Assembly: GCF_000195755.1 (NCBI RefSeq)
Contig: NC_002937.3
Coordinates: 2,820,001 to 2,852,000 of the forward strand
Length of the DNA stretch: 32,000 nucleotides
Reading direction: 5' to 3'
Source: Nitratidesulfovibrio vulgaris str. Hildenborough
GTDB taxonomy: Bacteria > Desulfobacterota > Desulfovibrionia > Desulfovibrionales > Desulfovibrionaceae
The first letter of the stretch is position 1. Each line of letters opens with the position of its first letter. This document shows, piece after piece, positions 2,022 through 32,000 of the stretch. Both the position numbers and the translations under genes were made by a program. Below the pieces are notes generated by a model. The model did no database searches. It saw only the letters and a program-made list of their open reading frames with translations, and was not told where the DNA came from.

Positions 2022-2849
2022 ATGAGTCAACATGCGACGTGGCGCGAAGAAATGGTCATCAACCTAACTGGGGGCATGGCTGATGAACATGAAATTGACG
2101 CCGGGGTGCTCTGTGAATCCTTGACTGGTTTGACTAAGCTCGCGGAGAAAACGCGAGCATCAATTTATAGAGATGCTAAGATTTCCATCAAAATAAAAGG
2201 TGGTTTTAAAGAAGGTTCATTCGATTACTCTATTGTTTTTGACATGTTTGCTGCTGTAGCCCCTGTTGCCCCTCAACTTGTCAAAACAATAAAGGAAGTT
2301 ATAGAATTCAGGAAGTTTTTGAATGGGGGAGAGCCTGTGAAAACTGAACCTGAAGCTAATAATAGTTCAAGAGTTGAAAACAATAGTGGCGCAACAATGG
2401 TCGTCCAAAACAGTACTATAATAATCAATAATAGCCCCTTAACAACAAAGGCACTTCAAAAGTTTTTTTCACCACTCGGCAGTGGAATAAATGCTTTTGA
2501 AGTAAGCGACAGCGAAGAAAAAAACGTTACAGTTGGCTCTCAAGAAAAGAATTTGTTCTTAGATACAACATCAAAAGAAGTAGATTCAAATGATTCTGAA
2601 AGAATTCTCGAAATTCTAACAGCTCAAATGGATGGAAAGCCAAACGGATGGCGCTTTTACGATGTTGAAGAAGAAATTGAATTTTCAGCAGGAGTTGCTG
2701 ACTCAAGTTTTCTTATGGCTGTAAATTCTGGTAAATATGGAATTCTTCGAGGAAGCCACGTATCCGCAACAGTCCGTACAAACAGGATGATAGTAGATGG
2801 CCGACGAAGAACAGAAAGAACAATAATTAGTCTTATTCCGATTGAATAA
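2022..2849 (+). CDS. Orphan 275-aa soluble protein in a low-GC accessory (moron-like) cassette; function unknown
   Basis: Clean ORF with its own SD and ATG. About 32-33% GC in hand-counted lines against about 65-75% in the flanks. A/T-rich codon usage. No hydrophobic segments. Two-part architecture joined by an N/S/T-rich linker (EANNSSRVENNSGATMVVQNSTIIINNSPLTT). I recognise no family. Confidence 0.8.
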   Translation: MSQHATWREEMVINLTGGMADEHEIDAGVLCESLTGLTKLAEKTRASIYRDAKISIKIKGGFKEGSFDYSIVFDMFAAVAPVAPQLVKTIKEVIEFRKFLNGGEPVKTEPEANNSSRVENNSGATMVVQNSTIIINNSPLTTKALQKFFSPLGSGINAFEVSDSEEKNVTVGSQEKNLFLDTTSKEVDSNDSERILEILTAQMDGKPNGWRFYDVEEEIEFSAGVADSSFLMAVNSGKYGILRGSHVSATVRTNRMIVDGRRRTERTIISLIPIE

Positions 2850-2868
2850 AGCAATACACCTCGAATCA

Positions 2869-2898
2869 AAGCCCCGCCACTGCGGGGCTTATCTTTTA
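2869..2898 (+). terminator. Rho-independent terminator of the low-GC cassette
   Basis: AAGCCCCGC (2869-2877), loop CACT, GCGGGGCTT (2882-2890), followed by ATCTTTTA. Confidence 0.7.
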
Positions 2899-2984
2899 TA
2901 TACTGAACTCCTTCCATATAGAGTGACGTTATATTCTAACATACCATACTCTGACATCAACAATGTAACGGGTAGGAGTATGCC

Positions 2985-3359
2985 ATGGCCCTGAAGGAAT
3001 ACCTCGGCGCAATCGTGCTGGAAGTGGACGGCAAGGAATACGAGGTCGAATCGGTAGACATCGACCACAAGTCAGGCCGCAAACTGGTGAAGACCATGAA
3101 CCGCAAGGGCAGGCCCAGCGGCTATGCCGAAGGCGTCCACGAATGGACGCTGAAGATATCCGCCCCCGTGCCCAAGGAAGGCGGCCCGGACTGGAACAGC
3201 ATCGTGGGCGCAAAGCTGACCATCTACCCGGTGACGCCCGGCGGCAAACGCACGTCGTACCTTGATTGCGTCGCCCTCGATGACGCCGACAAGTACAACG
3301 TGGACAACGAGGCGAAAGTGGATGTGACACTGGCGGCCATGGACAAGGTTGTAGAATAG
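2985..3359 (+). CDS. Tail tube protein (Mu gpM-like)
   Basis: 124-aa ORF with SD GGTAGGAG 2971-2978. Size and position between sheath and chaperone genes fit a tube protein. Somewhat more A/T at third positions than neighbouring phage genes. Confidence 0.8.
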   Translation: MALKEYLGAIVLEVDGKEYEVESVDIDHKSGRKLVKTMNRKGRPSGYAEGVHEWTLKISAPVPKEGGPDWNSIVGAKLTIYPVTPGGKRTSYLDCVALDDADKYNVDNEAKVDVTLAAMDKVVE

Positions 3360-3484
3360 GACACGCCCCGGCGCACGCCGCGTTGTCCAGCCGTCGCAGA
3401 CGGCGCAAGCCCGCAAGGGAAGCTTGCTTCCCCAAGGGCGGCACAGGCCCTGAAGGCGAAACCTGAAGGGCCGTCATCTGGTCA

Positions 3485-3541
3485 GACAACGAGGCCAAGG
3501 TCGACGTGACGCTGGCGGCCATGGACAAGGTTGTAGAATAG
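3485..3541 (+). pseudogene. 57-bp relic of the 3' end of a second tail-tube allele (duplicate of 3303-3359)
   Basis: Both copies encode DNEAKVDVTLAAMDKVVE plus TAG. The 5 nucleotide differences (GCG/GCC, AAA/AAG, GTG/GTC, GAT/GAC, ACA/ACG) are all synonymous third-position changes. The relic frame is closed by TGA at 3464-3466 and similarity stops exactly at 3485. Confidence 0.85.
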
Positions 3542-3556
3542 CGAGGAGCACAGACC

Positions 3557-3886
3557 ATGAGCATGAAGAACGCCACCGGCAAGGGCACGCTGGCCATCGG
3601 CTACCGCGACGAGGCAGGCACCTGCCACAAGGACTTCGAGATGCGCCTTCCCACGCTGGAGGACATCGAAGAGGCCATAGCCGATGCGGGCGAAGGGGCC
3701 TGTCAGGCGCGTGTCAGCCGTCATGTATGGGCACGCACCATCACCCGCCTTGGCACCCTGCCTGCCGAGGCCATCGACGCCAGCCTTCTGGCAGGCCTTG
3801 CCGACGTGGAATACGGCCGCTTCGCCGATGTGGAGGCCAGCATCAGAAAAAAGCTGCTGGCCGAGAGCGAGAGCTCCGGCAGTTGA
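3557..3886 (+). CDS. Tail assembly chaperone, short form (Mu gp41 / P2 gpE analogue)
   Basis: 109-aa acidic ORF between the tube and tape-measure genes. Contains a slippery site near its 3' end. Confidence 0.8.
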   Translation: MSMKNATGKGTLAIGYRDEAGTCHKDFEMRLPTLEDIEEAIADAGEGACQARVSRHVWARTITRLGTLPAEAIDASLLAGLADVEYGRFADVEASIRKKLLAESESSGS

Positions 3887-4041
3887 GAGCGGCGGAACTG
3901 GCCCTAGTGCGTCACGGTTTCAGCCTTGCGGACATACGCAGCCTGACCGTGCCTGAACTGCAAAGCTACATCGACCTTCTGACGGGCCGCACCTCCACCG
4001 GAGGGCAACGCTTCGTCAACCGAAGGCTGAAGGGGAGATAG
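3557..4041 (+). CDS. Tail assembly chaperone, long form made by a programmed -1 frameshift at 3847-3853
   Basis: The -1 frame (track ORF 3727..4041) is open across the slippery site and continues 63 codons (…KKAAGRERELRQLRAAEL…RRLKGR) to TAG at 4041, 3 nt before the tape-measure ATG. This is the canonical G/GT or E/E' arrangement. Confidence 0.7.
3847..3853 (+). promoter_or_regulatory. -1 ribosomal frameshift slippery heptamer A_AAA_AAG
   Basis: Zero-frame codons are AGA AAA AAG (3845-3853), so the heptamer is phased as X_XXY_YYZ. Same heptamer as E. coli dnaX. Confidence 0.7.
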
Positions 4042-4044
4042 CGC

Positions 4045-5985
4045 ATGGGAGACATGGCCCTGCAACTGCGCCTGCAACTGCGCGACCAGATGGGCGCACG
4101 GGCCACCCGCGCCCTTGAGGACGTGCGCCGGGCCGCCGGGGGAGCCTCCACGGCGGCCTCGGCCCTCGGCCGTAACACGGCAGCCCTTGGCCGGGTCAAC
4201 TTCAACGGCATGGTGCAGGGGCTGAAGCGCGTGGAACAGGCGGCCACCGCTGCCATGCGTGGCCTGAAGCGCATGGGCGGCACGGCCTCCGAGGTCATGA
4301 AGGCGGCCGGTGGCGTCGGGGCCGGTGCCATGGCGGGCGGCTACGTCGCAGGCCGCGCCTTGGCCCCGGCCATAAGCTACGAATCGAAACTGGCCAGCAT
4401 GGCCAACGTGGCCTTCAACGACCGGGACGCCGCCGGGCGCATGGCGGGCATGAAGGAACTGGACGCCGCCGTGAAGCGCGCCACCGACGTGGGCGGCGGT
4501 TCGCGCGAACAGGCCGCCGATGCCCTGAACACCATGCTGGCCATGGGCATGAAGTCCGACACGGCCACGAACCTTCTGCCGCAGTTGCAGAAGGCCGCCA
4601 CCGCCTCCGGTGCGGACGTGAACGAGCTGGCCCAAGTGGTGATGAAGGGCATGGAACAGGGCTTCTTCACCGAGGCGCAGGTGGGCGAGGCCATCGACAA
4701 GGCGGTGAAGGCGGGCGAGGCCGGACAGTTCGAACTGAAGGACATGGCCCGCTGGCTGCCGCAAATCATGGCCAACGCCAAGGGCATGAAGGGCATGGCG
4801 GGTTACGAGGCCATCCTCGCCTCGTTGCAGGGCGTCTCCGTCGTCACCGGCACCAACGACCAGGCAGGCAACGCCCTGTTCAACCTGCTTGGCAAGGTCA
4901 CCAGTGCCGACACCGCACTGGACTTCAAGAAGCAGGGCATCGACCTGCACGGCACGCTGGCCAAGGCCACCGCCAACGGCCAGTTGCCGCTGGATGCCTT
5001 CGTGGAACTGGTCGAACGGCAGGTGGTGGGCAAGGACAAGCGCTTCCAGTCCATCAAGGCGCAGATGGCCACGGCCAAGGACGGCGAGAAGATGGCCCTC
5101 ATGGAACAGGCGGCCGACCTGTTGCAGGGTTCCGCCATAGGCAAGGTGGTGCAGGACCGCGAGGCGTCGCTGGCCCTCGCCGCCATGCTGACGCAGAAGC
5201 AGCGCATCGCCGAGGTCAAGGGCCAGCTTGGCGAAGCCCACGGCGCGGTGGATACCTCCTTCGCCGTCATGTCGAACACGTCCGACTTCAAGCTACAGCA
5301 GGCGAAGAACGAGGTGGAGTCAGCCCGCTCGCGGATGCTGGCAGACGTGAAGCCCGCACTGGACGGGGCCGTGGCCGGGGCCACCGGCCTTGCCAGCCAG
5401 TTCCCCAAGCTGACCACCGTGGCGATGGAAGCCTCTACCGCCATAGGTGTCATGGCGGCGGCCGCTGCCGCCTATGGCGGGGCGGGTGTGCTCATGGGGC
5501 GCGGCGGGGCTGGTGGCGTGGGCAGGCCCCGCGATGAACACGGCCGGTTCATCAAGCCCGAAGCGGGCGCGGCAGGTTCCGCCACCGGACGCGCGGGCGC
5601 GTTCAAGGCCGGGGCGAAGGCTGGCGGCCTGCTGGCCTTGGCCGGGGCGGGGGTGAACGCCGTCATGACCGAATCCAGCGACATGAGCCGGGCCGAGAAG
5701 AACGCGGCCCACATGGGCACGGCAGGCGGTGCAGTGGGCACGATGGCGGGCACCGCCGTGGGCGCGGCGCTGGGGTCCGTTGTCCCCGTGGTGGGCACGG
5801 CCATTGGCGGTGTGCTGGGGGGCATGGCGGGTGGCTGGCTTGGCGACATGCTGGGCCAGAAGCTTGGCGACCTCATCTTCAAGGACGAATCCACCGTGCG
5901 CGTCGAGAGCGTGGTGCAGGTGGACGGCCGCGAACTGGCCCGCGCCGTGAATGAGGTGAATGGGCGCGACGCCGCACGTCGTTAA
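4045..5985 (+). CDS. Tail tape measure protein
   Basis: 646-aa Ala/Gly-rich ORF directly after the chaperone pair. C-terminal glycine-zipper-like hydrophobic stretch (GTAGGAVGTMAGTAVGAALGSVVPVVGTAIGGVLGGMAGGWLG), typical of tape measure proteins. Confidence 0.88.
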   Translation: MGDMALQLRLQLRDQMGARATRALEDVRRAAGGASTAASALGRNTAALGRVNFNGMVQGLKRVEQAATAAMRGLKRMGGTASEVMKAAGGVGAGAMAGGYVAGRALAPAISYESKLASMANVAFNDRDAAGRMAGMKELDAAVKRATDVGGGSREQAADALNTMLAMGMKSDTATNLLPQLQKAATASGADVNELAQVVMKGMEQGFFTEAQVGEAIDKAVKAGEAGQFELKDMARWLPQIMANAKGMKGMAGYEAILASLQGVSVVTGTNDQAGNALFNLLGKVTSADTALDFKKQGIDLHGTLAKATANGQLPLDAFVELVERQVVGKDKRFQSIKAQMATAKDGEKMALMEQAADLLQGSAIGKVVQDREASLALAAMLTQKQRIAEVKGQLGEAHGAVDTSFAVMSNTSDFKLQQAKNEVESARSRMLADVKPALDGAVAGATGLASQFPKLTTVAMEASTAIGVMAAAAAAYGGAGVLMGRGGAGGVGRPRDEHGRFIKPEAGAAGSATGRAGAFKAGAKAGGLLALAGAGVNAVMTESSDMSRAEKNAAHMGTAGGAVGTMAGTAVGAALGSVVPVVGTAIGGVLGGMAGGWLGDMLGQKLGDLIFKDESTVRVESVVQVDGRELARAVNEVNGRDAARR

Positions 5986-6004
5986 AGCACAGGGGAACAA
6001 CGCC

Positions 6005-7345
6005 ATGTCATGGAAGGACGACCTGCTGGACGCCAGCTTCAGGGGTGCCCGTTTCGAGGTGGTACGCACCCGCGACCACGGCGAACGCGCCCTCGTGGAA
6101 CACGAATACCCCTACCGCACCGGGGCAGAGATAGAAGACATGGGCCGCAAGGCCCGGCGCATCAGCATCACGGCGGTCTTCTACGGCCCGCACTACGCGG
6201 CCGGGCTTGCAGCCCTGCTTGAGGCACTTGAGAAGCCCGGCAAGGGCGAACTCATCCACCCCGTCTTCGGTTCCGTCACCGTATGCGCCGGGCCGTATGA
6301 CGTGACCCACGACGCGGAACAGCCCGACCACGCCGAAGTCACGCTCGAATTCGTCGAAGCCGAACCCGACAACCCCTTCCTTGCCGCCGGGGGCCGCCGT
6401 GCCACCGCGCAGGACGCGGGCCTGCGCGTGGAAGACGCCACCGCGCGTGGCAAGGAATCCAGCGGCCGCAGCTTCGCCCGCTGGCTTGAGAGCACCGCCA
6501 AGGGCTACAGCCTTGCCGAACGTGTGTGCGTGCTGGATACGCTGCATCAGGGGCTGGACGACTACGACGCAACCCACGGCGCACTGCGGGCGTCGGTCAG
6601 CTATCTGGACTTCCCCACCGCCTACCTTGCAGACCTCGACGCCGCGCAGGACATGGCCGCCGGGCCGTTCCGCCCCGTGCAGGGCTTCGGCAACTGGCAA
6701 CGCCTGTCGCAGACCTTCCAAGGCCGCAGCCTCACGGGTGGACGCGGGCGGGCCTACCCCGTGGGCACCAGCGCCTACGCGGGGGCCGTGCTCACCGGCC
6801 CGGCATCCGGCCTTGCCGAGCCTTCGCCCGTGGTGCCCGGTGACGAGGCCCCCCGGCCCGGGCGTCCTGCCCCGGTAGCCGACCTCTCCAGCGCACAGGG
6901 TGCCGCCACGGCCCATGCCGCCGCTCACGCCGAAGTGGCCCAGACGGCGCTCTTGGCGGGCGAGGCCGCCACCCTGCTTGAAGCGGAGACCGAGACCCCC
7001 ACGCTGACCCCGCACGAGGTCGAAGCCGTGGTGGGCAACGTGCGCGACCGCCTGCAAGACGCCATGGACGCCAGCCGCGCCGTGCTGCCGCCCCACGAAT
7101 CGCACCCCGTGGTGGAGGCCCTGCGCGATGCCGCCCTTGCAGTGCAGCAGCTTGGGGCCTTGGTGCTGGCGGCCCGTCCGCCCTTGGTGCGGTACGCCGT
7201 GCCGTGGCCCTGCAACCTGCACCTTCTGGCGCACCGCCTGTACGGCGACCATCGCCGCGCCGCCGAACTGGCCCGGCTGAACCCGGCCCTGCGCAATCCC
7301 AACTTCATCGCCCAAGGACAGGAGTTGCTCATCCATGCCCAGTGA
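6005..7345 (+). CDS. DNA circulation protein (Mu gpN-like) with a C-terminal LysM/gpX-like segment
   Basis: ATG at 6005 (MSWKDDLLDASFRGARFEV...EHEYPYR), the typical gpN N-terminus. C-terminal NLHLLAHRLYGDHRRAAELARLNPALRNPNFIAQGQELLI resembles the P2 gpX LysM-type motif. The track ORF start at 5960 overlaps the tape measure and is less likely. Confidence 0.85.
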   Translation: MSWKDDLLDASFRGARFEVVRTRDHGERALVEHEYPYRTGAEIEDMGRKARRISITAVFYGPHYAAGLAALLEALEKPGKGELIHPVFGSVTVCAGPYDVTHDAEQPDHAEVTLEFVEAEPDNPFLAAGGRRATAQDAGLRVEDATARGKESSGRSFARWLESTAKGYSLAERVCVLDTLHQGLDDYDATHGALRASVSYLDFPTAYLADLDAAQDMAAGPFRPVQGFGNWQRLSQTFQGRSLTGGRGRAYPVGTSAYAGAVLTGPASGLAEPSPVVPGDEAPRPGRPAPVADLSSAQGAATAHAAAHAEVAQTALLAGEAATLLEAETETPTLTPHEVEAVVGNVRDRLQDAMDASRAVLPPHESHPVVEALRDAALAVQQLGALVLAARPPLVRYAVPWPCNLHLLAHRLYGDHRRAAELARLNPALRNPNFIAQGQELLIHAQ

Positions 7346-8489
7346 CCGCAGGCCCGACGAGACCATGCCCGCAGGCGACGCACGGCAGGCCGTCACCCTC
7401 ATGGTGGGCGGACGCGAGCACCGCGACTGGACGAGCTATGAAGTGGACAGCGACCTCATGACCCCGGCGGACGCATGGCGCGTCACGCTTGGCATCCCCG
7501 CCGACGCCGTTCCGGCCACGGTGCGCCCGTGGGAGCCGGTGCAACTGGCCGTGGGCGGCGAGGTGGTGCTTTCGGGCCGCATCGACAGGGTGGAACGCAC
7601 CATCCGCAAGGGTGAGCTTTCCCTTGCCATCAGCGGGCGCGACGGGGCCGCCGTCTTGGTGGACTGTTCCGCGCCCATCTTCACCTCACGGCAGGTGAGC
7701 GTGGCAGAGGCCGTGGCGCACATCGTGCGGCCCTTGGGCATTGCGCGGGTGCGCGTGGCCCCCGGTGCCGGACATGCGACCGGGCACACTGCCGGGCACG
7801 AGAAGGTGGCCATCGAACCGGGCATGACCGCATGGGACGCCCTGCAACAGGTGGCAGAGGCCAACGGCATGTGGCCGTGGTTCACCCCTGACGGCACCTT
7901 GGTGGTGGGAGGCCCCGACTACACCGCGCCCCCCGTGGGCGGCCTCGTGCTGCGCATGGACGGCACGCAGAACAACGTGCTGGCCCTCTCCGTGCGCGAC
8001 GGCGTGGAAGAACGCTTCTCCGAGGTGACGGTGCTTGGCCAGAGTCACGGCACCGAAGACGCCGAAGGGGCCAACGCCCTGCGCGCCATAGCCCGCGACA
8101 CCACGGCGCAGTGGCACCGCCCCCGCGTTGTGGTAGAGGCGGAATGCGACACCGCCGACATGGCCCGCCGCCGGGCACGCAAGCTGCTTGCCGACGGCAG
8201 ACTGGCCGCCTTCGAGATGCGGGCCACCGTGCGCGGGCACCGGGCCAGCGGCCCCACGGGCGATGGCGTGCTGTGGCAACCCGGCCAGCGGGTGCGGGTG
8301 CTGTCAGAACCGCACGGCATCGACGGCGTGTTCTTCCTCACCCGGCGCACGTTCATGGGCGGCCGCGACCGGGGGCAGGTGACGGAACTGACGCTGAAGG
8401 AGGACGGCGTGTGGCTGCCCGACGTGGGCAAGCGCCGCAAGCGCAAGAAGCAAGATGGCGAGACAGCCATGGAGGTGGTCGACCTATGA
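7335..8489 (+). CDS. Baseplate hub protein (Mu gpP / gp44, gpD-like)
   Basis: 384-aa ORF overlapping the gpN stop. Synteny between gpN and gp45. Basic C-terminal tail KRRKRKKQ. An alternative start at ATG 7365 is possible. Confidence 0.82.
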   Translation: MPSDRRPDETMPAGDARQAVTLMVGGREHRDWTSYEVDSDLMTPADAWRVTLGIPADAVPATVRPWEPVQLAVGGEVVLSGRIDRVERTIRKGELSLAISGRDGAAVLVDCSAPIFTSRQVSVAEAVAHIVRPLGIARVRVAPGAGHATGHTAGHEKVAIEPGMTAWDALQQVAEANGMWPWFTPDGTLVVGGPDYTAPPVGGLVLRMDGTQNNVLALSVRDGVEERFSEVTVLGQSHGTEDAEGANALRAIARDTTAQWHRPRVVVEAECDTADMARRRARKLLADGRLAAFEMRATVRGHRASGPTGDGVLWQPGQRVRVLSEPHGIDGVFFLTRRTFMGGRDRGQVTELTLKEDGVWLPDVGKRRKRKKQDGETAMEVVDL

Positions 8490-9112
8490 TGCAGCAGGTG
8501 AACCGGGCCATAGCCCGGACGTTGGCCACCATCCGGCAGGCGTTCCGCGCCCGCCTCACCGGGCTGGACACCACGCCCGGCGTCCAGTTGGCGCAGGCCG
8601 GGGGGCTGGCAGGCGAACAGGTGCAGGCGTCCGAACTGTTCCAGCACTTCGGCTTCACCTCCGCCCCGCCCGAAGGCACCCAGTGCATCGTCCTGCCCCT
8701 AGGCGGCAAGACGGCCCATAGCGTGGTGGTGGCCACAGAGAACGGGGCCTACCGGGTGCAGGCCCTGCAAGGCGGCGAGGTGTGCATCTATAACCAGTGG
8801 GGCGCGAAGATAACCCTGAAGAAGGAGAAGATTGTGGAGGTGGATTGCGACCACTTCCGGGTGGCCGCCAAGGAATCCATCACGATGGACACCAAGCGCT
8901 GGCAGGCCACCGCCACCGAGGGCACCGCCTTCACCTCGCCTTCGGTTGCCATTGGCGGCATGGGCGGGCTGAAGGCACAGGCAAGACTCGACGCCGACCT
9001 GCAAACGACAGGCGACGTGACCTCACAGGGAGACCACGTCGCCGGGGGCATCAGCTTGCGTCATCACCGCCATCCGGGGGATTCGGGCGGGACGACTGGA
9101 GAATCTTTATAA
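8486..9112 (+). CDS. Baseplate spike/assembly protein (Mu gp45, P2 gpV-like)
   Basis: ATG 8486 overlaps the gpP stop (ATGA). MMQQVNRAIARTL...ELFQHFGFTSAPPEG is typical of gp45/gpV. C-terminal RHHRHPGDSGGTTG is a His-rich spike-tip motif. The last few codons (GAA TCT TTA TAA) lie in the AT-rich insert. Confidence 0.85.
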   Translation: MMQQVNRAIARTLATIRQAFRARLTGLDTTPGVQLAQAGGLAGEQVQASELFQHFGFTSAPPEGTQCIVLPLGGKTAHSVVVATENGAYRVQALQGGEVCIYNQWGAKITLKKEKIVEVDCDHFRVAAKESITMDTKRWQATATEGTAFTSPSVAIGGMGGLKAQARLDADLQTTGDVTSQGDHVAGGISLRHHRHPGDSGGTTGESL

Positions 9113-9506
9113 GGCTGAAGGTGGACAGGAAGAAATCGAGCTTCACAAAGAACAATCCTATGGCAACACATATCGCACCAGAGACTACGCTCTCACCGAG
9201 GGCTATAAGCCCACCACTGCTGTTAGTGCTGTTCCACCACTGATGCGGCTTCATCTCCACAATTACATAGACGTTTGATATCACAATCAAGCATCCGACA
9301 ATAAGTAAGCATAGTATTGCACCATTTGCCACTACATTTAACAAAGAAGAAAAGGATGTTGTTTTTTCATTATGTTCTATTTTCATATCATTACTAGACA
9401 TTTCTCTTAAATCTTTATTTTCATACGTTTCTGCCTTTTGGCGTAGCTGATGGTTTCCTTTGATAGCCTTCTCTTTGATAATTTTATATTCAGTTTGCAC
9501 AGGCAC
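9051..9506 (-). CDS. Small membrane protein (up to 151 aa, 2 predicted TM segments) in a low-GC antisense cassette; function unknown
   Basis: Only long ORF in the AT-rich block from ~9095 to ~9510 (about 32% GC in a hand-counted line). Charged N-terminus, then hydrophobic segments LLNVVANGAILCLLIVGCLIVISNVYVIV and LIALGESVVSGAICVAIGLFFV. Start is uncertain: GTG 9506, GTG 9500 (7 nt after GGAG) or ATG 9401. The last ~14 codons run antisense into the gp45 3' end. Confidence 0.62.
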   Translation of the reverse strand: MPVQTEYKIIKEKAIKGNHQLRQKAETYENKDLREMSSNDMKIEHNEKTTSFSSLLNVVANGAILCLLIVGCLIVISNVYVIVEMKPHQWWNSTNSSGGLIALGESVVSGAICVAIGLFFVKLDFFLSTFSLIKILQSSRPNPPDGGDDAS

Positions 9507-9572
9507 ACTCCATGATCAAACACTGAACCCCTTCCATCTGTCTTCCTCCCCATCCGCCACTAGAGTGGCGGC

Positions 9573-9929
9573 ATGGGAACCGACGCAGCCATAGACACCT
9601 TACGGGGAGACTATACGGGCGAACGCATCGCCAGTCTAGCCAACGCCGTCTATCTTCGCCTCATGACGCCCCTTGGTTCATGGTGGGGCGACACCGCCTT
9701 GGGGTCGCGCCTGCATGAACTGGCGCGAGAGAAAGACGTGCCCCGCATCCGCCGCCTTGCCGCACAGTACGCGGAACAGGCCCTTGCCCCGCTTCTCACG
9801 GACGGACGCGCCCGCGCCGTCACTGTCACCGCAGCCCAGCCGCACGACGGCCGCTGCATCCTGCATGTCACCGTCACAGACGCCACGGGCCAGCAACAGA
9901 CCTACACGCATCCGGTGCGTGTGGCCTAG
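9573..9929 (+). CDS. Baseplate protein (Mu gp46 family, gpW/gp25-like)
   Basis: 118-aa ORF. Motifs LANAVYLRLMTPLGSWWGD...GSRLHEL fit the gp46 family. Synteny between gp45 and gp47. Confidence 0.85.
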   Translation: MGTDAAIDTLRGDYTGERIASLANAVYLRLMTPLGSWWGDTALGSRLHELAREKDVPRIRRLAAQYAEQALAPLLTDGRARAVTVTAAQPHDGRCILHVTVTDATGQQQTYTHPVRVA

Positions 9930-9938
9930 GGGCAAGCC

Positions 9939-11000
9939 ATGCCGTACATCATCCCCACCTTCGAGGAGATACGCGCCGCCATCTTGCGCGACGTGAAGAA
10001 CCTGCTGCCCGATGCCGACACAGGCCCGGACAGCGACGCCTTCATCCGCGCATCCAGCACGGCCTCTGCCGTCTATGGCCTGTATCAGCACCAGCTATGG
10101 ATGGCCCGCCAGATTCTGCCCGACACGGCAGACACCGCCTACCTCGAATCCCACGCGGCCCTGCGCGGCATCACCCGCAAGCCCGCCACCAAGGCCACGG
10201 GCACCCTCACCCTGACGGGAACGCCGGGCGCGGCGGTGCCTGCGGGCACAGAGGCGCGGCACATTGCCACCGGGGCCACCTTCCGCACCACGGCCACCGT
10301 GACACTGGCCGAGAACGGCACGGCCAGCGCGCCGTGCGAGGCCTCCGTGGCAGGGGCCATGCCGGACTACACGGCAGAGACCGTGCTTTTAACGGCACCG
10401 CCGCCCGGCGTGCAGTCCACCGCAAGCCTTGCCCTCACGGGCGGCACCGACACGGAGACAGACGCCGAACTGCTGGAACGCCTGCTGTTCCACTTCCGCA
10501 ACCCGCCCGGCGGCGGCAACCGTTACGACTACAAGCGGTGGGCCTTGGAGGTGCCGGGCGTCACCGGGGCATGGGTCTACCCCCTGCGCCGGGGCTTGGG
10601 CACCGTAGACGTGGCCGTGCTTTCGGCGGGCGGCCTGCCCACACCGGAACTTCTGGCGGCGGCACAGGCCCGCATCGACGAACGTCGGCCCGTGGCCTGC
10701 AAAGACGCGCGGGTGCTTGCGCCCACCCCCTTGGCGGTGGACGTGCGCGTGCGGGTGCGCCTTGCGGGCACCACGTTGCCCGTGGTCACCACACAGGTGC
10801 GCGAGGCGCTGGCCGCACACTTCGGCGGCTATGAACCGGGCGGGCAGGTGGTGCGTTCGCGGCTTGAGGCCATCATCTCCGGCATCCCCGGCGTGGCAGA
10901 CCGCGACCTGACGGCCCCGTCCGCCAACGTGCAGGCCGTGGTGGACGCCTCCCGCGTGGAATGGCCGCGCCTTGGCACCGTCACCGTGGAGGCCATGTGA
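9939..11000 (+). CDS. Baseplate J-like protein (Mu gp47)
   Basis: 353-aa ORF. N-terminus PTFEEIRAAILRDVKNLLPDADTGPDSD and internal ETDAELLERLLFHFRNPPGGGNRYDYKRWALEVPGV are classic baseplate-J signatures. Confidence 0.9.
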   Translation: MPYIIPTFEEIRAAILRDVKNLLPDADTGPDSDAFIRASSTASAVYGLYQHQLWMARQILPDTADTAYLESHAALRGITRKPATKATGTLTLTGTPGAAVPAGTEARHIATGATFRTTATVTLAENGTASAPCEASVAGAMPDYTAETVLLTAPPPGVQSTASLALTGGTDTETDAELLERLLFHFRNPPGGGNRYDYKRWALEVPGVTGAWVYPLRRGLGTVDVAVLSAGGLPTPELLAAAQARIDERRPVACKDARVLAPTPLAVDVRVRVRLAGTTLPVVTTQVREALAAHFGGYEPGGQVVRSRLEAIISGIPGVADRDLTAPSANVQAVVDASRVEWPRLGTVTVEAM

Positions 11001-14619: not shown

Positions 14620-14706
14620 TGGTGCCGAGGGAGGGACTCGAACCCTCACGGGATTTCTCCCACTACCCCCTCAAGATAGCGTGTCTACCAATTCCACCAC
14701 CTCGGC
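14620..14706 (-). tRNA. tRNA-Leu (anticodon GAG), type II with long variable arm, CCA encoded
   Basis: Reverse complement reads GCCGAGGTGGTGGAATTGGTAGACACGCTATCTTGAGGGGGTAGTGGGAGAAATCCCGTGAGGGTTCGAGTCCCTCCCTCGGCACCA. Acceptor GCCGAGG/CCTCGGC; anticodon stem CTATC/GGTAG with loop TTGAGGG; T arm GAGGG-TTCGAGT-CCCTC. Nearly identical in its 5' half to E. coli tRNA-Leu(GAG) as I recall it. Confidence 0.92.
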
Positions 14707-29553: not shown

Positions 29554-30711
29554 TTACGGGCAGACGGATTCGGTGAAGACGAACTCGCCCTTGTCGCTGA
29601 TCTTGACGACAACGGCGCACTTGATGGGGTCGCCTTCGGCGTCGAACTTCATCTTGCCGGTGATGCCGTCGAAGGTGGTGATGGCCGAGATGTTGTCGCG
29701 GATGAGCTTGCGCATCTTGCGGACATCCTTCTCGACCTTGCCGCCGTTCTGGATGGCGGTCAGCACGATGCGGGTGGCGTCCCAGGTCAGCGCGGCCACG
29801 TCGTCGGGGATGTAGCCGTAGCGGTTGGTGTACTTGTCGATGAATTCCTTGGTGGCGCCGGTGGCACCAGCCGCGGCGTAGTGGGTCGAGAAGAACTGGC
29901 CCACGCAATCCTTGCCGCACAGGGTCATGAGTTCGGCAGAACCCCACGCGTCGGAACCCATGAAGGGGCCCTTCCAGCCAAGGTCATGCGCCTGCTTCAC
30001 GATGAGTGCCACGATGTTGTAGTTCTCGGGCAGGAAGATGAAGTCGGGCTTGGCTGCGAGCAGCTTGGTCAGCTGGGCCGAGAAGTCCTGGTCCTTGGTG
30101 CCGTGCGACTCGAAGGCGACCACGGTGCCCTTGCCGTGCTTCTCTTCCCACTTCACGCGGAAGATGTCGGCAAGGCCCTTGGAGTAGTCGTTGGAGACGT
30201 CGAACATGACGGCGGCGGTCTTGGCGCCGAACTGCTTCGAGGCGAAGTTCACGACCACAGGAGCCTGGAAGGGGTCGAGGAAGGCGGCGCGGAACACCCA
30301 GGGACGCCCCTTGGTGGTGTCGGGGTTGGTGGACCACGGCGAGATGAGCGGGGTCTCGTTGTCGTCGGCGACGCCGCCAGCGGGCACAGCCTGCTTGGAG
30401 GAGTTGGGGCCGACGATGGCGAGCACCTGATCGCGCTCGATGAGCTTGAGTGCCGCGTTGACGGCCGACTCAGGCTTGGACTCGTTGTCCTCATACACGA
30501 ATTCGAGCATGTACTTCTTGCCGCCCACTTCGAGACCGCCCTTGGCGTTGATCTCGTCGCGCAGCATCTCGGCGGCGAACTTGGAGGCCTCGCCGACCTT
30601 GGGGATGTCACCGGTGAGCGGGATGTCGAAGCCTATCTTGATGGTATCGGCCGCATACGCTGCCGAAGCCATCAGAAGGAGCATCAGCATGGACAGAACG
30701 GTTTTCCTCAT
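29554..30711 (-). CDS. livK: Periplasmic branched-chain amino acid-binding protein (LivK/LivJ family)
   Basis: 385 aa. Signal peptide MRKTVLSMLMLLLMASAAYA. IKIGFDIPLTGDIPKVGE...AIVGPNSS is typical of type I periplasmic binding proteins of the Leu/Ile/Val family. First gene of the operon. Confidence 0.88.
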   Translation of the reverse strand: MRKTVLSMLMLLLMASAAYAADTIKIGFDIPLTGDIPKVGEASKFAAEMLRDEINAKGGLEVGGKKYMLEFVYEDNESKPESAVNAALKLIERDQVLAIVGPNSSKQAVPAGGVADDNETPLISPWSTNPDTTKGRPWVFRAAFLDPFQAPVVVNFASKQFGAKTAAVMFDVSNDYSKGLADIFRVKWEEKHGKGTVVAFESHGTKDQDFSAQLTKLLAAKPDFIFLPENYNIVALIVKQAHDLGWKGPFMGSDAWGSAELMTLCGKDCVGQFFSTHYAAAGATGATKEFIDKYTNRYGYIPDDVAALTWDATRIVLTAIQNGGKVEKDVRKMRKLIRDNISAITTFDGITGKMKFDAEGDPIKCAVVVKISDKGEFVFTESVCP

Positions 30712-31088
30712 CGCTAGCCTCCTCGCAAGGTGATGAATGAAATGACGGTTCGCAATTAGTACAGCAATCAGCGGGAGATGGGAACATCATTTATCAATTT
30801 TGTCCTTATTGTAAACAGCATATAAAATCAATATGTTATAACTTGACATTATTGTTATAATAAAATACGCGTATTTTCAGTATGTTAACTTTGTAGCATT
30901 AGATTACGGTCTGTTTTAATTCCATGCATACTGAATGACAAAACAGTCGTTTTTTAATATATTGATTTCAGTGCAGTTATGGAATGACAAGCCACCACCG
31001 AGATTTCTGTGCAACCGTTTTAGTGGTCTGAAAAACTACCATTTACAGCATCGTCAAACGATTAAACGCGCAAACACACAGGGTCGCC
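30712..31088. promoter_or_regulatory. AT-rich divergent control region between the liv operon and the epimerase-like gene
   Basis: About 375 bp that is far more AT-rich than anything else in the host part. Perfect TTGACA at 30843-30848. Repeated TGTTATAA (30834-30841, 30853-30860) and TATGTTA (30832-30838, 30881-30887). No convincing complete promoter could be assembled by eye. Confidence 0.45.
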
Positions 31089-32000
31089 ATGTTAGCCATC
31101 CCATTCCACAAAATGAGTCCCGGCGGAAACACCACCATCCTCGTCCCCCACTCCGCTGTAGATGCCCTTCACAGGGCCCCTGTCGCCACGCGGCTCATGC
31201 ACGGCCTCCACCTTGGGGCGGAACAGGTGGGCTTCATCGACATGGGGTCTTCCATCCCCCGCCTCGACATGATGGGAGGCGAATTCTGCGGCAATGCCTG
31301 CCGCTGCCTTGCCGCACTCCTCCTGCTTGAAGGACGGGTGCAGGACGACGGACAAGGAGGGAGCACAGGGCGCATCGCCGCCTCCGGCGTATCGACTCCG
31401 GTACACTTCACAGCAAGGCACCTGCCTGACGGTGCAGTGGACGCCTCCATACGCATGGACCTTCCCGCCATGCCAGACATGGTCGACATCGCACCGGGCA
31501 TGAGCCTTGTCCGCCTTCCCGGCATCAGCCACCTGTTGCTCGACCTTGCGCTTCACCCCTACCCCGGACGCCCCGGTGAGACAGTGCCAGGCATCCTGCG
31601 GCGCTACGGACTGGATGAGGCACCCGCTGCGGGGTGCATCTGGTTCGGTGAAAACGGCGGAAGGCGGTTCATCAAGCCGGTAGTGCATGTCCGGGACACC
31701 GCCACCATCCATGAAGAGACGGCGTGCGGGTCGGGGACGCTGGCGCTGGCATTGCACCTCTCGCGCCACGCCGCCCCTGCGGCTGATGCCATCGACAAGG
31801 CCGCAAGCCCCGCAACGGGCAAGCCAGCCGAACGCATCACCCGCGTACCCCGTGATTGCTGCACTCCTCCGGATGATGCGGAGTGCACGAACGACGCGTG
31901 GCACGTCATCGGACAACCAAGCGGTGCCGTCATCCGTGCCACAGTGAAGGCGGGTGCCGACGGCATCGAGGCATGGATTGGCGGGCCTGTGACCCTCATC
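31089..32000 (+). CDS. DapF-superfamily PLP-independent amino-acid epimerase/racemase, 5' partial view (runs off the window)
   Basis: Not in the ORF track because no stop falls inside the window. My translation: MLAIPFHKMSPGGNTTILV...MMGGEFCGNACRCLAALLL...IHEETACGSGTLALALHL... Two Cys motifs (FCGNACR, ACGSGT) sit at DapF-like spacing. The frame is open to position 32000. Confidence 0.7.
   Translation, partial: MLAIPFHKMSPGGNTTILVPHSAVDALHRAPVATRLMHGLHLGAEQVGFIDMGSSIPRLDMMGGEFCGNACRCLAALLLLEGRVQDDGQGGSTGRIAASGVSTPVHFTARHLPDGAVDASIRMDLPAMPDMVDIAPGMSLVRLPGISHLLLDLALHPYPGRPGETVPGILRRYGLDEAPAAGCIWFGENGGRRFIKPVVHVRDTATIHEETACGSGTLALALHLSRHAAPAADAIDKAASPATGKPAERITRVPRDCCTPPDDAECTNDAWHVIGQPSGAVIRATVKAGADGIEAWIGGPVTLI

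What the first reader, a model, noticed from the sequence alone, without database searches (positions are those of the whole stretch)
9051..9572. Antisense low-GC cassette encoding a small two-TM membrane protein between baseplate genes gp45 and gp46
A second AT-rich block (about 32% GC in a hand-counted line) interrupts the gp45-gp46 junction and carries one ORF on the opposite strand to the whole late operon. The product has a charged, Lys/Glu-rich cytoplasmic N-terminus and two hydrophobic helices. That architecture recalls superinfection-exclusion or abortive-infection membrane effectors and holin-like proteins. The ORF converges on gp45 and overlaps its 3' end by about 60 nt. The last gp45 codons lie in the insert, so the insertion remodelled the gp45 C-terminus just after the His-rich spike tip. 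Convergent transcription could also couple lysogenic expression of this gene to late-gene read-through.
Basis: partly seen in the sequence, partly recalled or inferred. Interest (0 to 1): 0.75.

Follow-up and report, generated by a model that had tools for sequence, protein, structure and literature searches.

The report
Prophage accessory gene for membrane protein
A small AT-rich insert between two baseplate genes of a Mu-like prophage of Desulfovibrio vulgaris Hildenborough carries a real, expressed, backwards-facing gene (DVU2725) for a two-helix membrane protein found only in this species; it is an ordinary kind of phage add-on gene, probably protecting the host from other phages, though that role is untested.

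Summary
Between gp45 (8486-9112) and gp46 (9573-9929) lies a ~408-bp block (9113-9520) of 39.5% GC, with a 30-33% core, against ~66% in the flanks. It has one minus-strand ORF (9051-9506) that overlaps gp45 by 62 nt.

The window is Nitratidesulfovibrio vulgaris Hildenborough and the ORF is DVU2725, annotated 'membrane protein, putative'.

It looks like a real gene:
- It is longer than chance allows (9 of 2000 shuffles).
- dN/dS is 0.26 against a diverged allele.
- It has two hydrophobic helices.
- Published microarray RNA is 7-25x that of flanking late genes in uninduced cultures.

It is an orphan: one homologue, also from N. vulgaris, among 1.84 billion representative proteins, and no Pfam, NCBIfam or PADLOC match.

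In 88 related Mu-like loci, 20 carry unrelated 0.3-1.7 kb inserts at this same junction. These include ParE-toxin, HEPN and PD-T4-10-like cargo. So this is a moron in a recurrent accessory-gene hotspot.

A membrane-level phage-exclusion or abortive-infection role is the best inference, but it is untested. A holin role is unlikely. The gp45 'remodelling' amounts to its last two codons.

This is a new member of a known kind, of modest interest. A conserved hairpin that sequesters the gp46 start codon was noticed in passing.

The parts
8486..9112 (+). gp45 baseplate spike gene (DVU2724, 'phage baseplate assembly protein V'). Its Apex motif is encoded at about 9047-9100. The last two codons and the stop (9104-9112) lie at the edge of the insert.
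   Evidence: Pfam Phage_Mu_Gp45 2.4e-23 and Apex 1.2e-4. C-terminus compared with 13 relatives. DVU2724 name from PMC3114432 supplement.
9113..9520 (.). AT-rich accessory cassette (moron) inserted between the gp45 stop and the conserved gp46 leader.
   Evidence: GC 0.395 (core 0.30-0.33) against ~0.66 in the flanks. The block is absent from insert-free relatives, whose gp45-gp46 gap is 40-90 nt.
9051..9500 (-). CDS DVU2725, a two-helix membrane protein of 149 aa from GTG 9500 (RefSeq WP_010939993.1). Alternative starts are GTG 9506 (151 aa), ATG 9401 (116 aa, GenBank AAS97197.1) and ATG 9386 (111 aa). The last 18 codons are the antisense of the gp45 3' end.
   Evidence: ORF list. 100% match to P0001 and P0003. 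phrog_31912 matches residues 3-151. dN/dS 0.26 against the L001 allele. ORF length test. RNA signal.
9508..9511 (-). Shine-Dalgarno-like GGAG, 7 nt before GTG 9500 and 1 nt before GTG 9506.
   Evidence: Read from the minus-strand sequence. A similar GGAGG-N5-GTG context precedes the homologous ORF in L001.
9258..9356 (-). Hydrophobic helix 1 (residues 49-81 of the 149-aa product), containing the conserved CLLIVGC motif.
   Evidence: Kyte-Doolittle 19-residue window, peak 2.67. Conserved in P0002. AlphaFold2 helix 17-82, low confidence.
9144..9209 (-). Hydrophobic helix 2 (residues 98-119), with a conserved membrane-embedded Glu. An amphipathic continuation runs to about residue 134.
   Evidence: Hydropathy. 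Identical in P0002. AlphaFold2 helix 95-136.
9011..9043 (-). 14-bp stem-loop inside gp45, starting 8 nt after the DVU2725 stop codon and followed by UGUCGUUUGC. Candidate terminator for the minus-strand transcript. On the plus strand no T-run follows it.
   Evidence: Terminator-like call. RNA fold -23.1 kcal/mol, z = -2.98. Same hairpin in L001 and L005, but not in the relatives that lack this gp45 lineage.
9610..9638 (-). Sigma-70-like promoter candidate TAGACT-N17-TATAGT inside gp46 codons 13-22, reading towards DVU2725.
   Evidence: Consensus scan: 3 sites found against 0.5 expected in the region. The hexamers are built from rare codons: AGT is 6.6% of Ser, CTA 2.3% of Leu, TAT 23% of Tyr. 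They are identical in L005 although 5 of 17 spacer bases differ. Function is inferred only.
9522..9578 (+). Conserved gp46 leader of the phage backbone, which forms the right boundary of the cassette. It has an ACTGAAC..TTC motif (9522-9535) and a hairpin (arms 9547-9561 and 9564-9578) that pairs with the gp46 start codon.
   Evidence: Alignment of 31 loci. Per-locus folds. Pairing statistics. Window fold -22 kcal/mol, z = -3.61. Inverted repeat I2.
9573..9929 (+). gp46 baseplate wedge gene.
   Evidence: Pfam GP46 1.5e-20.

Best explanation
This is a moron: a horizontally acquired, AT-rich accessory cassette. It sits in a recurrent insertion hotspot between the spike gene gp45 and the wedge gene gp46 of a Mu-like prophage of N. 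vulgaris Hildenborough. Its single gene, DVU2725, faces against the late operon.

Shown:
- The cassette is an insertion relative to related phages.
- The ORF is under purifying selection.
- It encodes two hydrophobic helices.
- It is confined to N. vulgaris.
- Its array RNA signal in uninduced cultures is far above that of the neighbouring late genes.

Inferred:
- It is transcribed on the minus strand from a promoter next to or inside the 5' end of gp46, and terminated at the hairpin inside gp45.
- Translation most likely starts at GTG 9500.
- The product inserts in the cytoplasmic membrane with both ends inside and a 16-residue Trp-rich periplasmic loop.
- It acts there to protect the lysogen against incoming phages. 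It would either block genome entry (superinfection exclusion) or disturb the membrane once infection is sensed (abortive infection).
For: - Insertion and composition.
- Real gene: 154 stop-free codons against 81.5 +/- 20.5 in shuffles. dN/dS is 0.26 over the 58 diverged codons, with one in-frame indel, against allele L001.
- Membrane protein. K+R counts are 10 in the N-terminus, 1 in the loop and 3 in the C-terminus, which fits an in/in topology.
- Own signals: GGAG-N7-GTG. Promoter-like and terminator-like sites on the minus strand.
- Expression (PMC3114432 Suppl. Table 2): RNA at CT0/CT120/ST120 is 2475/4926/8895 for DVU2725. It is 358/336/359 for DVU2724 and 264/309/356 for DVU2723. For scale, rpoB gives 7955/5763/7725.
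- Hotspot: 20 of 88 related loci carry unrelated inserts at the same junction.
- Hotspot cargo: a PD-T4-10 A+B-like pair, a ParE toxin and a RiboL-PSP HEPN protein.
- In the Desulfovibrionaceae relatives L002, L003 and L005 the cargo is likewise AT-rich and antisense.
Against: - There is no functional evidence of any kind for phage exclusion.
- There is no similarity to any known Sie, Abi or defence family: Pfam, NCBIfam and PADLOC give 0 hits, and PHROGs gives only its own unknown-function family.
- The protein was never detected in the proteomic datasets.
- In the second array platform (dataset 1) the RNA signal is only 1.2-2.2x that of DVU2724. I could not verify the strand specificity of the arrays.
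- Only one diverged homologue exists, so the selection estimate rests on a single pair.
- Most hotspot cargo has no known function. Hotspot membership therefore does not prove a defence role.
- The promoter call is only a consensus match inside a coding region.
Confidence: 0.5

Rival explanations
1. Lysogenic-conversion membrane protein that is not about phages. The cassette is a genuine expressed moron, but its product changes host envelope physiology, for example stress tolerance, transport or surface properties.
For: The RNA signal rises from 4926 to 8895 under salt stress and from 2475 to 4926 with culture time. There is no match to any defence family. Many morons serve host fitness rather than defence (background cited in PMC10884400).
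Against: A 1.8-fold change on one array platform is weak evidence. A 108-149 aa two-helix protein has no recognisable transporter or enzyme features. Where cargo at the same junction is recognisable, it is toxin- or defence-like.
Confidence: 0.2
2. Membrane toxin or addiction element. DVU2725 is a toxic small membrane protein. Its expression is held down by the fully complementary late-operon transcript or by its own leader, and it either stabilises the prophage or kills the cell at a set point in the cycle.
For: The gene lies entirely inside the late transcription unit in antisense, so any late read-through produces a perfect antisense RNA. There is a conserved membrane-embedded Glu in helix 2. 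A ParE toxin occupies the same hotspot in L018.
Against: It gives a substantial RNA signal in healthy growing cultures. Type I toxins are typically single-helix peptides under about 60 aa (my own knowledge), whereas this protein is 108-149 aa with two helices. No antitoxin candidate lies in the 408-bp cassette.
Confidence: 0.1
3. Lytic-cycle function such as a holin, antiholin or another lysis or injection helper.
For: The size and the two hydrophobic helices with charged ends resemble class II holins. There is a weak phrog_689 holin match at E=0.25.
Against: The gene is oriented against the late operon and has no adjacent endolysin or spanin. It is absent from most related phages, which assemble and lyse without it. 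It appears to be expressed in uninduced cultures. The holin match is not significant.
Confidence: 0.08
4. Non-functional open frame in an AT-rich spacer. The block would be a remnant, a promoter region or regulatory DNA, and the ORF would be incidental.
For: The protein has never been detected. The family has only two alleles. The last 18 codons are simply the antisense of gp45. Plus-strand promoter-like sites occur in the block.
Against: dN/dS is 0.26 at dS ~1.5, with the frame kept across an indel. The ORF length is unlikely by chance in AT-rich DNA. The hydrophobic segments and the RBS are conserved in the diverged allele. Small hydrophobic proteins are commonly missed by proteomics (my own knowledge).
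Confidence: 0.07

Closest known systems
HK97 gp15 moron (superinfection exclusion; Cumby et al. 2012 J Bacteriol 194:5012, cited; details from my own knowledge)
   Same: A small inner-membrane protein gene inserted as a moron among tail-morphogenesis genes of a temperate phage. It is expressed from the prophage and is absent from close relatives.
   Different: There is no sequence similarity. DVU2725 is antisense to the late operon and overlaps the spike gene. Its exclusion activity is untested.
T4 Imm and P22 SieA (inner-membrane proteins that block phage DNA entry; PMC11436027; PMC10883804)
   Same: Small, phage-encoded cytoplasmic-membrane proteins that act alone.
   Different: There is no homology. 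T4 Imm comes from a lytic phage. The mechanism is unknown here.
P2 accessory hotspots (old/tin and Z/fun; Rousset et al. 2022, as summarised in bioRxiv 10.1101/2024.10.15.618418)
   Same: A fixed position between conserved phage genes, one of them next to a baseplate gene, where unrelated cargo alternates between related phages. The cargo includes PD-T4-10.
   Different: The phage lineage is different (Mu-like, gp45|gp46 junction). Usage is patchy: 20 of 88 loci in the sample, and 0 of 59 E. coli prophages of this type. Most cargo here is unannotated.
Tab of Pseudomonas Mu-like phage JBD26 (PMC10884400)
   Same: An orphan small protein encoded by a moron inside the late operon of a Mu-like prophage. 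There it was shown to give anti-phage defence.
   Different: Tab is an 83-residue protein between the terminase genes that blocks tail assembly. DVU2725 is a membrane protein at a different site and in the opposite orientation.

Membership tests
Phage moron / hotspot cargo gene | Present or absent between otherwise syntenic related phages at a fixed junction | tested here: met
   The gp45-gp46 gap is 40-90 nt in 68 of 88 loci, and 0.3-1.7 kb with unrelated content in 20. The window insert lies between the gp45 stop and the conserved leader.
Phage moron / hotspot cargo gene | Base composition deviating from the phage backbone | tested here: met
   GC 0.395 (core 0.30-0.33) against 0.66 for gp45 and gp46.
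Phage moron / hotspot cargo gene | Autonomous expression from the prophage (own promoter and terminator) | tested here: inconclusive
   Minus-strand promoter-like and terminator-like sites. Published array RNA is 7-25x that of flanking late genes in one dataset but only 1.2-2.2x in the other. No transcription start-site data were available.
Superinfection-exclusion inner-membrane proteins (HK97 gp15, T4 Imm, P22 SieA) | Small protein with transmembrane helices | tested here: met
   Two hydrophobic segments by hydropathy. The AlphaFold2 model shows helices, at low confidence: pLDDT 63.
Superinfection-exclusion inner-membrane proteins (HK97 gp15, T4 Imm, P22 SieA) | Sequence or profile similarity to a characterised Sie family | tested here: not met
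   Pfam, NCBIfam and PADLOC give 0 hits. PHROGs gives only phrog_31912 (unknown function). An exhaustive HMMER search finds only P0002.
Superinfection-exclusion inner-membrane proteins (HK97 gp15, T4 Imm, P22 SieA) | Blocks entry or establishment of superinfecting phage | not testable with these tools
   This needs plating, adsorption and injection assays.
Holins | Encoded in a lysis cassette with an endolysin and co-oriented with the late genes | tested here: not met
   The neighbours are gp44-gp48 baseplate genes, the gene is antisense, and no lysis gene is adjacent.
Holins | Profile match to a holin family | tested here: not met
   Best match is phrog_689 holin at E=0.25. No Pfam holin family matches.
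Known anti-phage defence systems (PADLOC-DB v2) | HMM match to a component of a listed system | tested here: not met
   0 families at E <= 1.
Type I toxin-antitoxin membrane toxins | Very small (under ~60 aa) single-helix peptide with a dedicated antisense RNA | tested here: not met
   The product is 108-149 aa with two helices. A dedicated antisense RNA cannot be tested here.
Bacterial lipoproteins (considered because of the LLIVGC motif) | Lipobox followed by a hydrophilic mature domain | tested here: not met
   IVGC resembles a lipobox, but the hydrophobic stretch runs on for 11 residues after the Cys (CLIVISNVYVIV). That fits a single long membrane helix instead. No dedicated predictor was available.

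The most novel reading that the evidence does not exclude
DVU2725 founds a new single-gene, membrane-acting phage-exclusion or abortive-infection family. It is expressed in the lysogen from a promoter embedded in the gp46 coding sequence that reads out into the hotspot. The gp45|gp46 junction, bounded by a conserved leader whose hairpin sequesters the gp46 start codon, is a dedicated cargo-exchange site of one Mu-like lineage. The leader would insulate gp46 translation from whatever is inserted upstream.
Probability: 0.2. Interest if true: 0.6.

Novelty: new member of a known kind. Interest (0 to 1): 0.35.

Why it matters
Prophage morons are a main source of new anti-phage and host-modifying functions. 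Almost nothing is known about phage-host conflict in sulfate-reducing bacteria.

DVU2725 is a short, expressed, lineage-restricted membrane protein in a genetically tractable model organism, so its role can be tested directly.

The comparative result is probably the more useful lead for discovering cargo functions:
- The gp45|gp46 junction is a recurrent cargo site in one group of Mu-like phages.
- A conserved leader structure bounds that site.

On its own, the gene is an unremarkable example of a well-known class.

Tried and rejected
- **Homology searches.** Pfam, NCBIfam and PADLOC gave nothing for the ORF. PHROGs returned only its own family.
- **Wider sequence searches.**
  - The word-indexed 5.8-billion-protein search and the exhaustive HMMER search of 1.84 billion representatives found only the N. 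vulgaris allele P0002. They also returned one spurious hit, P0006, at E=9.6e-5 over a short stretch.
  - tblastn of the INPHARED phages, IMG/VR and JGI metagenome contigs found none.
- **Structure.** AlphaFold2 on the two-sequence alignment gave pLDDT 63 and pTM 0.27. I judged this too weak for a meaningful fold search, so none was run.
- **RNA families.** Rfam on 8800-9800 gave only chance matches. RNAalifold on the MAFFT alignment of gp46 leaders predicted no pairs, because the hairpin arms were misaligned. I used per-sequence folds and an anchored pairing count instead.
- **Insertion scars.** There are no convincing target-site duplications or flanking repeats around the cassette.
- **Literature.** Lookups for Price et al. 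2011 and Cumby et al. 2012 failed because they are not held. No paper discusses DVU2725 beyond table entries.
- **Readings rejected.** Lipoprotein, holin and type I toxin (see the membership tests).
- **An error of mine.** A codon-position GC calculation used the wrong frame. It is not used.
Full report
**Observation.** The feature is there as described.
- The window carries a Mu-like baseplate operon on the plus strand. Pfam identifies four genes:
  - gp44 at 7335-8489
  - gp45 at 8486-9112 (Phage_Mu_Gp45 plus the Apex motif at residues 188-205 of 208)
  - gp46 at 9573-9929
  - gp47 at 9939-11000
- Sheath, tape-measure, DNA-circularisation and gp48 genes surround these.
- Between gp45 and gp46 the GC fraction drops from about 0.66-0.73 to 0.30 at 9300-9499. 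It is 0.395 over 9113-9520 and 0.333 over 9240-9500.
- The only long ORF in the block is on the minus strand, 9051..9506 (151 aa). It overlaps the gp45 3' end by 62 nt.
- A stop-free run of 154 codons in this region is reached by only 9 of 2000 dinucleotide-preserving shuffles, whose mean is 81.5 with sd 20.5.

**Identity.**
- The product is 100% identical to AAS97197.1, 'membrane protein, putative', of Nitratidesulfovibrio (Desulfovibrio) vulgaris Hildenborough. That entry is 116 aa, starting at ATG 9401.
- It is also identical to RefSeq WP_010939993.1, which is 149 aa starting at GTG 9500 and was seen on 31 contigs.
- The supplementary table of PMC3114432 names three consecutive genes:
  - DVU2723: 'tail protein'
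  - DVU2724: 'phage baseplate assembly protein V'
  - DVU2725: 'membrane protein, putative'
- The ORF is therefore DVU2725. This agrees with the gene order counted from the DVU2716 tail sheath gene (PMC2685097).

**Anatomy.** The left edge of the insert is at the very end of gp45.
- The window gp45 ends ...HHRHPGDSGGTTGESL*.
- Insert-free relatives end ...HHKHPGDSGGTTGEPE* (L007) or ...HHTHPGDSGGMTGTPVGG* (L006).
- The Apex motif is intact, and at most the last two residues come from the insert.

The right edge is at about 9520.
- From 9522 onward the sequence is a leader conserved in front of gp46 in many related phages, with or without an insert.
- The cassette is therefore about 408 bp and holds little besides the gene.

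Other features of the gene:
- The last 18 codons of DVU2725 (KILQSSRPNPPDGGDDAS) are just the antisense of the gp45 Apex-coding region.
- An antisense ORF across a duplicated Apex fragment in L005 ends in the same kind of tail.
- On the minus strand, GGAG lies 7 nt before GTG 9500.
- The only homologous allele (L001) has GGAGG-N5-GTG in a similar context, directly before its conserved core. I therefore favour GTG 9500 as the start.
- The ~41 Lys/Glu-rich residues that follow in the window are absent from that allele, so they are not a conserved part of the protein.

Predicted protein properties:
- Hydropathy gives two hydrophobic segments, residues 49-81 and 97-127 in the 149-aa numbering.
- K+R counts are 10 in the N-terminus, 1 in the loop and 3 in the C-terminus. 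This fits a topology with both ends in the cytoplasm and a 16-residue Trp-rich outer loop.
- AlphaFold2 on two sequences gives a helical hairpin at low confidence: pLDDT 63, pTM 0.27.

Candidate transcription signals:
- Eight nucleotides after the stop codon lies a 14-bp stem-loop (9043-9011 on the minus strand). It folds at -23.1 kcal/mol (z = -2.98) and is followed by UGUCGUUUGC. On the plus strand no T-run follows it.
- A sigma-70-like site, TAGACT-N17-TATAGT, lies at 9638-9610 on the minus strand inside gp46.

**Is it a real gene?** Three lines of evidence say yes.
- *Length:* the ORF is longer than chance allows (above).
- *Selection:*
  - The allele on metagenome contig L001 is identical in sequence to WP_164561667.1 of another N. 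vulgaris strain.
  - From the gp45 3' end to about 9205 it is ~99% identical in DNA to the window. Through helix 1 it is only ~70% identical.
  - Over the 58 diverged codons, dN/dS is 0.26 (dS 1.46, dN 0.38), and a 3-nt indel keeps the frame.
- *Expression* (raw fluorescence, PMC3114432 Suppl. Table 2):

| Gene | CT0 | CT120 | ST120 (salt stress) |
|---|---|---|---|
| DVU2725 | 2475 | 4926 | 8895 |
| DVU2724 | 358 | 336 | 359 |
| DVU2723 | 264 | 309 | 356 |
| rpoB (for scale) | 7955 | 5763 | 7725 |

Caveats on expression:
- In the other array dataset the excess over DVU2724 is only 1.2-2.2-fold.
- I could not check the strand specificity of the probes.
- The protein was not detected in any proteomic sample.

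**Distribution.** The protein is an orphan.
- Pfam, NCBIfam and PADLOC give no hits.
- PHROGs gives only phrog_31912 (unknown function, 2e-104), which is essentially this protein.
- The 5.8-billion-protein search and an exhaustive HMMER pass over 1.84 billion representatives find one homologue, P0002.
- Phage records, IMG/VR and JGI metagenomes give none.

**Comparative context.** I collected 12 genomic and 80 viral loci with related gp45 or gp46 genes.
- Of the 88 loci with both genes, 68 have a 0-90 nt junction. The other 20 carry inserts of 0.3-1.7 kb with unrelated content, in either orientation.
- Recognisable cargo includes:
  - a two-gene antisense cassette in L003 matching PD-T4-10_B (5.7e-6; also DUF6575, 5.7e-20) and PD-T4-10_A (2.9e-3)
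  - a ParE toxin in L018
  - a RiboL-PSP HEPN protein in L051
  - DUF551 in L008
- The remaining cargo is unannotated.
- The Desulfovibrionaceae relatives L002, L003 and L005 all carry AT-rich antisense cargo just after gp45.
- L005 holds two successive blocks separated by a duplicated gp45 Apex fragment. This suggests cassettes are exchanged by recombination within the gp45 3' end.
- Hotspot use depends on lineage. All 59 E. coli prophages of this type have an uninterrupted junction. In Mu itself gp45 and gp46 overlap.

**The gp46 leader (side finding).**
- In most loci a near-invariant CTGA(A/C)...TTCAC motif lies about 48 nt before the gp46 start.
- It is followed by a 10-14 bp hairpin whose 3' arm contains the start codon.
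- Stems differ between lineages while staying paired, for example GCCGCC/GGCGGC, GCCCCG/CGGGGC, GCTGCG/CGCAGC and GCCGAT/ATCGGC.
- In 26 of 55 distinct leaders, at least 9 of the 10 positions from -6 to +4 are paired. The figure is 4.5% after shuffling.
- The window hairpin folds at -22 kcal/mol, z = -3.61.
- Rfam has no match.
- Every insert sits upstream of this element. Its function is unknown.

**Mechanism.** The best-supported reading is a moron whose membrane protein is made in the lysogen and acts at the cytoplasmic membrane.
- *Support for a phage-exclusion or abortive-infection role:*
  - The gene is a prophage accessory gene that is expressed without induction.
  - It encodes a small membrane protein.
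  - The site collects toxin- and defence-type cargo.
- *Analogies:* HK97 gp15, T4 Imm and P22 SieA (cited; mechanistic details from my own knowledge).
- *Shown:* insertion, coding constraint, hydrophobic helices, restricted distribution and elevated RNA signal.
- *Inferred:* promoter, terminator, start codon, topology and function.
- *Promoter hint:*
  - The gp46-embedded hexamers use rare codons. AGT is 6.6% of Ser, CTA 2.3% of Leu and TAT 23% of Tyr.
  - They are identical in L005 although 5 of 17 spacer bases differ.
  - They are absent from six other relatives.
  - This hints at a backbone promoter reading into the hotspot. The argument is post hoc.
- *Rivals:* a host-physiology conversion gene (RNA up 1.8-fold in salt stress), a membrane toxin, a lysis function (unlikely given orientation, neighbours and expression), and a non-functional ORF (unlikely given dN/dS).

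**Verdict.**
- Its defence interpretation is reasonable but unproven.
- Its holin and 'remodelled spike tip' points are not supported.
- The feature is a new, orphan member of a well-known class: a phage moron in an accessory hotspot. The gene is already annotated as a putative membrane protein.
- Interest is modest. The hotspot and the gp46 leader are the more useful leads.

Noticed in passing
window 9522-9578; also L003, L004, L005, L008, L009, L012, L018-L020, L035-L046, L051-L053, L060-L093; L094:2500-2555: A conserved gp46 leader. It has a near-invariant CTGA(A/C)..TTCAC motif about 48 nt upstream of the start, then a 10-14 bp hairpin with many compensatory stem variants that pairs with the gp46 start codon. 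There is no Rfam match. It is absent from Mu proper and from loci where gp45 and gp46 abut. All hotspot inserts lie just upstream of it. Function unknown.
   Followed up: partly
window 9610-9638 (minus strand); L005 about 5814-5842: A promoter-like TAGACT-N17-TATAGT inside gp46 codons 13-22, built from rare codons (AGT, CTA, TAT). The hexamers are identical in L005, which also has antisense cargo, although 5 of 17 spacer bases differ. It is absent from six other relatives. It may be a backbone promoter reading into the hotspot.
   Followed up: partly
window 2022-2849 (+): The first AT-rich block (GC ~0.36-0.43), between the sheath and tube genes, encodes a 275-aa protein (DVU2717). It matches NCBIfam LAPAL_fam (4.9e-35), PADLOC candidate PDC-S42 (9.4e-25) and phrog_3243. 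Its array RNA (2775/2085/1528) is also far above that of neighbouring late genes, so it is probably a second expressed moron.
   Followed up: partly
L005:4520-5778: The related Desulfovibrio prophage has two successive blocks at the same junction. They are separated by a duplicated fragment of the gp45 Apex region (4894-5046, ...SLSHRRHPGDSGAT...). This suggests cassette gain by recombination within the gp45 3' end. The second block encodes an antisense 216-aa protein that looks by eye like it has a His/Cys (CHAT- or caspase-like) dyad. No Pfam hit.
   Followed up: no
L003:4631-6224 (minus strand): A 1.7-kb AT-rich antisense two-gene cassette at the same junction. It matches PADLOC PD-T4-10_B (5.7e-6; also Pfam DUF6575, 5.7e-20) and PD-T4-10_A (2.9e-3).
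   Followed up: partly
L018:1354-2172; L051:2064-2930: Other cargo at the junction: a ParE-family toxin (9e-9) next to a TPR-like protein in L018, and a RiboL-PSP HEPN protein (2.5e-9) in L051.
   Followed up: partly
L002:3989-6166 (Nitratidesulfovibrio liaohensis): A stranded gp45 fragment (residues 56-208, 78% identity) with no gp44 or gp46. AT-rich DNA flanks it. Downstream are an antisense 227-aa ORF (phrog_26663) and what looks by eye like an IS30-family transposase. It is probably a decayed prophage remnant.
   Followed up: no
L014:2375-2400, also L015 and L016: In the closest viral relatives without an insert, the CTGA motif sits in the loop of a terminator-like hairpin (GGTGGAAGC-GCTGAACA-GCTTCCACC followed by TTTTTT) between gp45 and gp46.
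   Followed up: no
window 14620-14706 (minus strand); window 30720-31090: A tRNA-Leu(GAG) gene lies just beyond the last phage-like ORFs. A third AT-rich stretch is an intergenic region upstream of a periplasmic binding-protein-like gene (29554-30711, minus strand). It looks like an ordinary promoter region.
   Followed up: no
L092:2184-2489 (minus strand): Another antisense ORF of about 101 aa with two predicted hydrophobic helices lies in the same hotspot of an unrelated phage, next to a 141-aa antisense ORF. It has no sequence similarity to DVU2725 and might be spurious, since the region is GC-rich.
   Followed up: no
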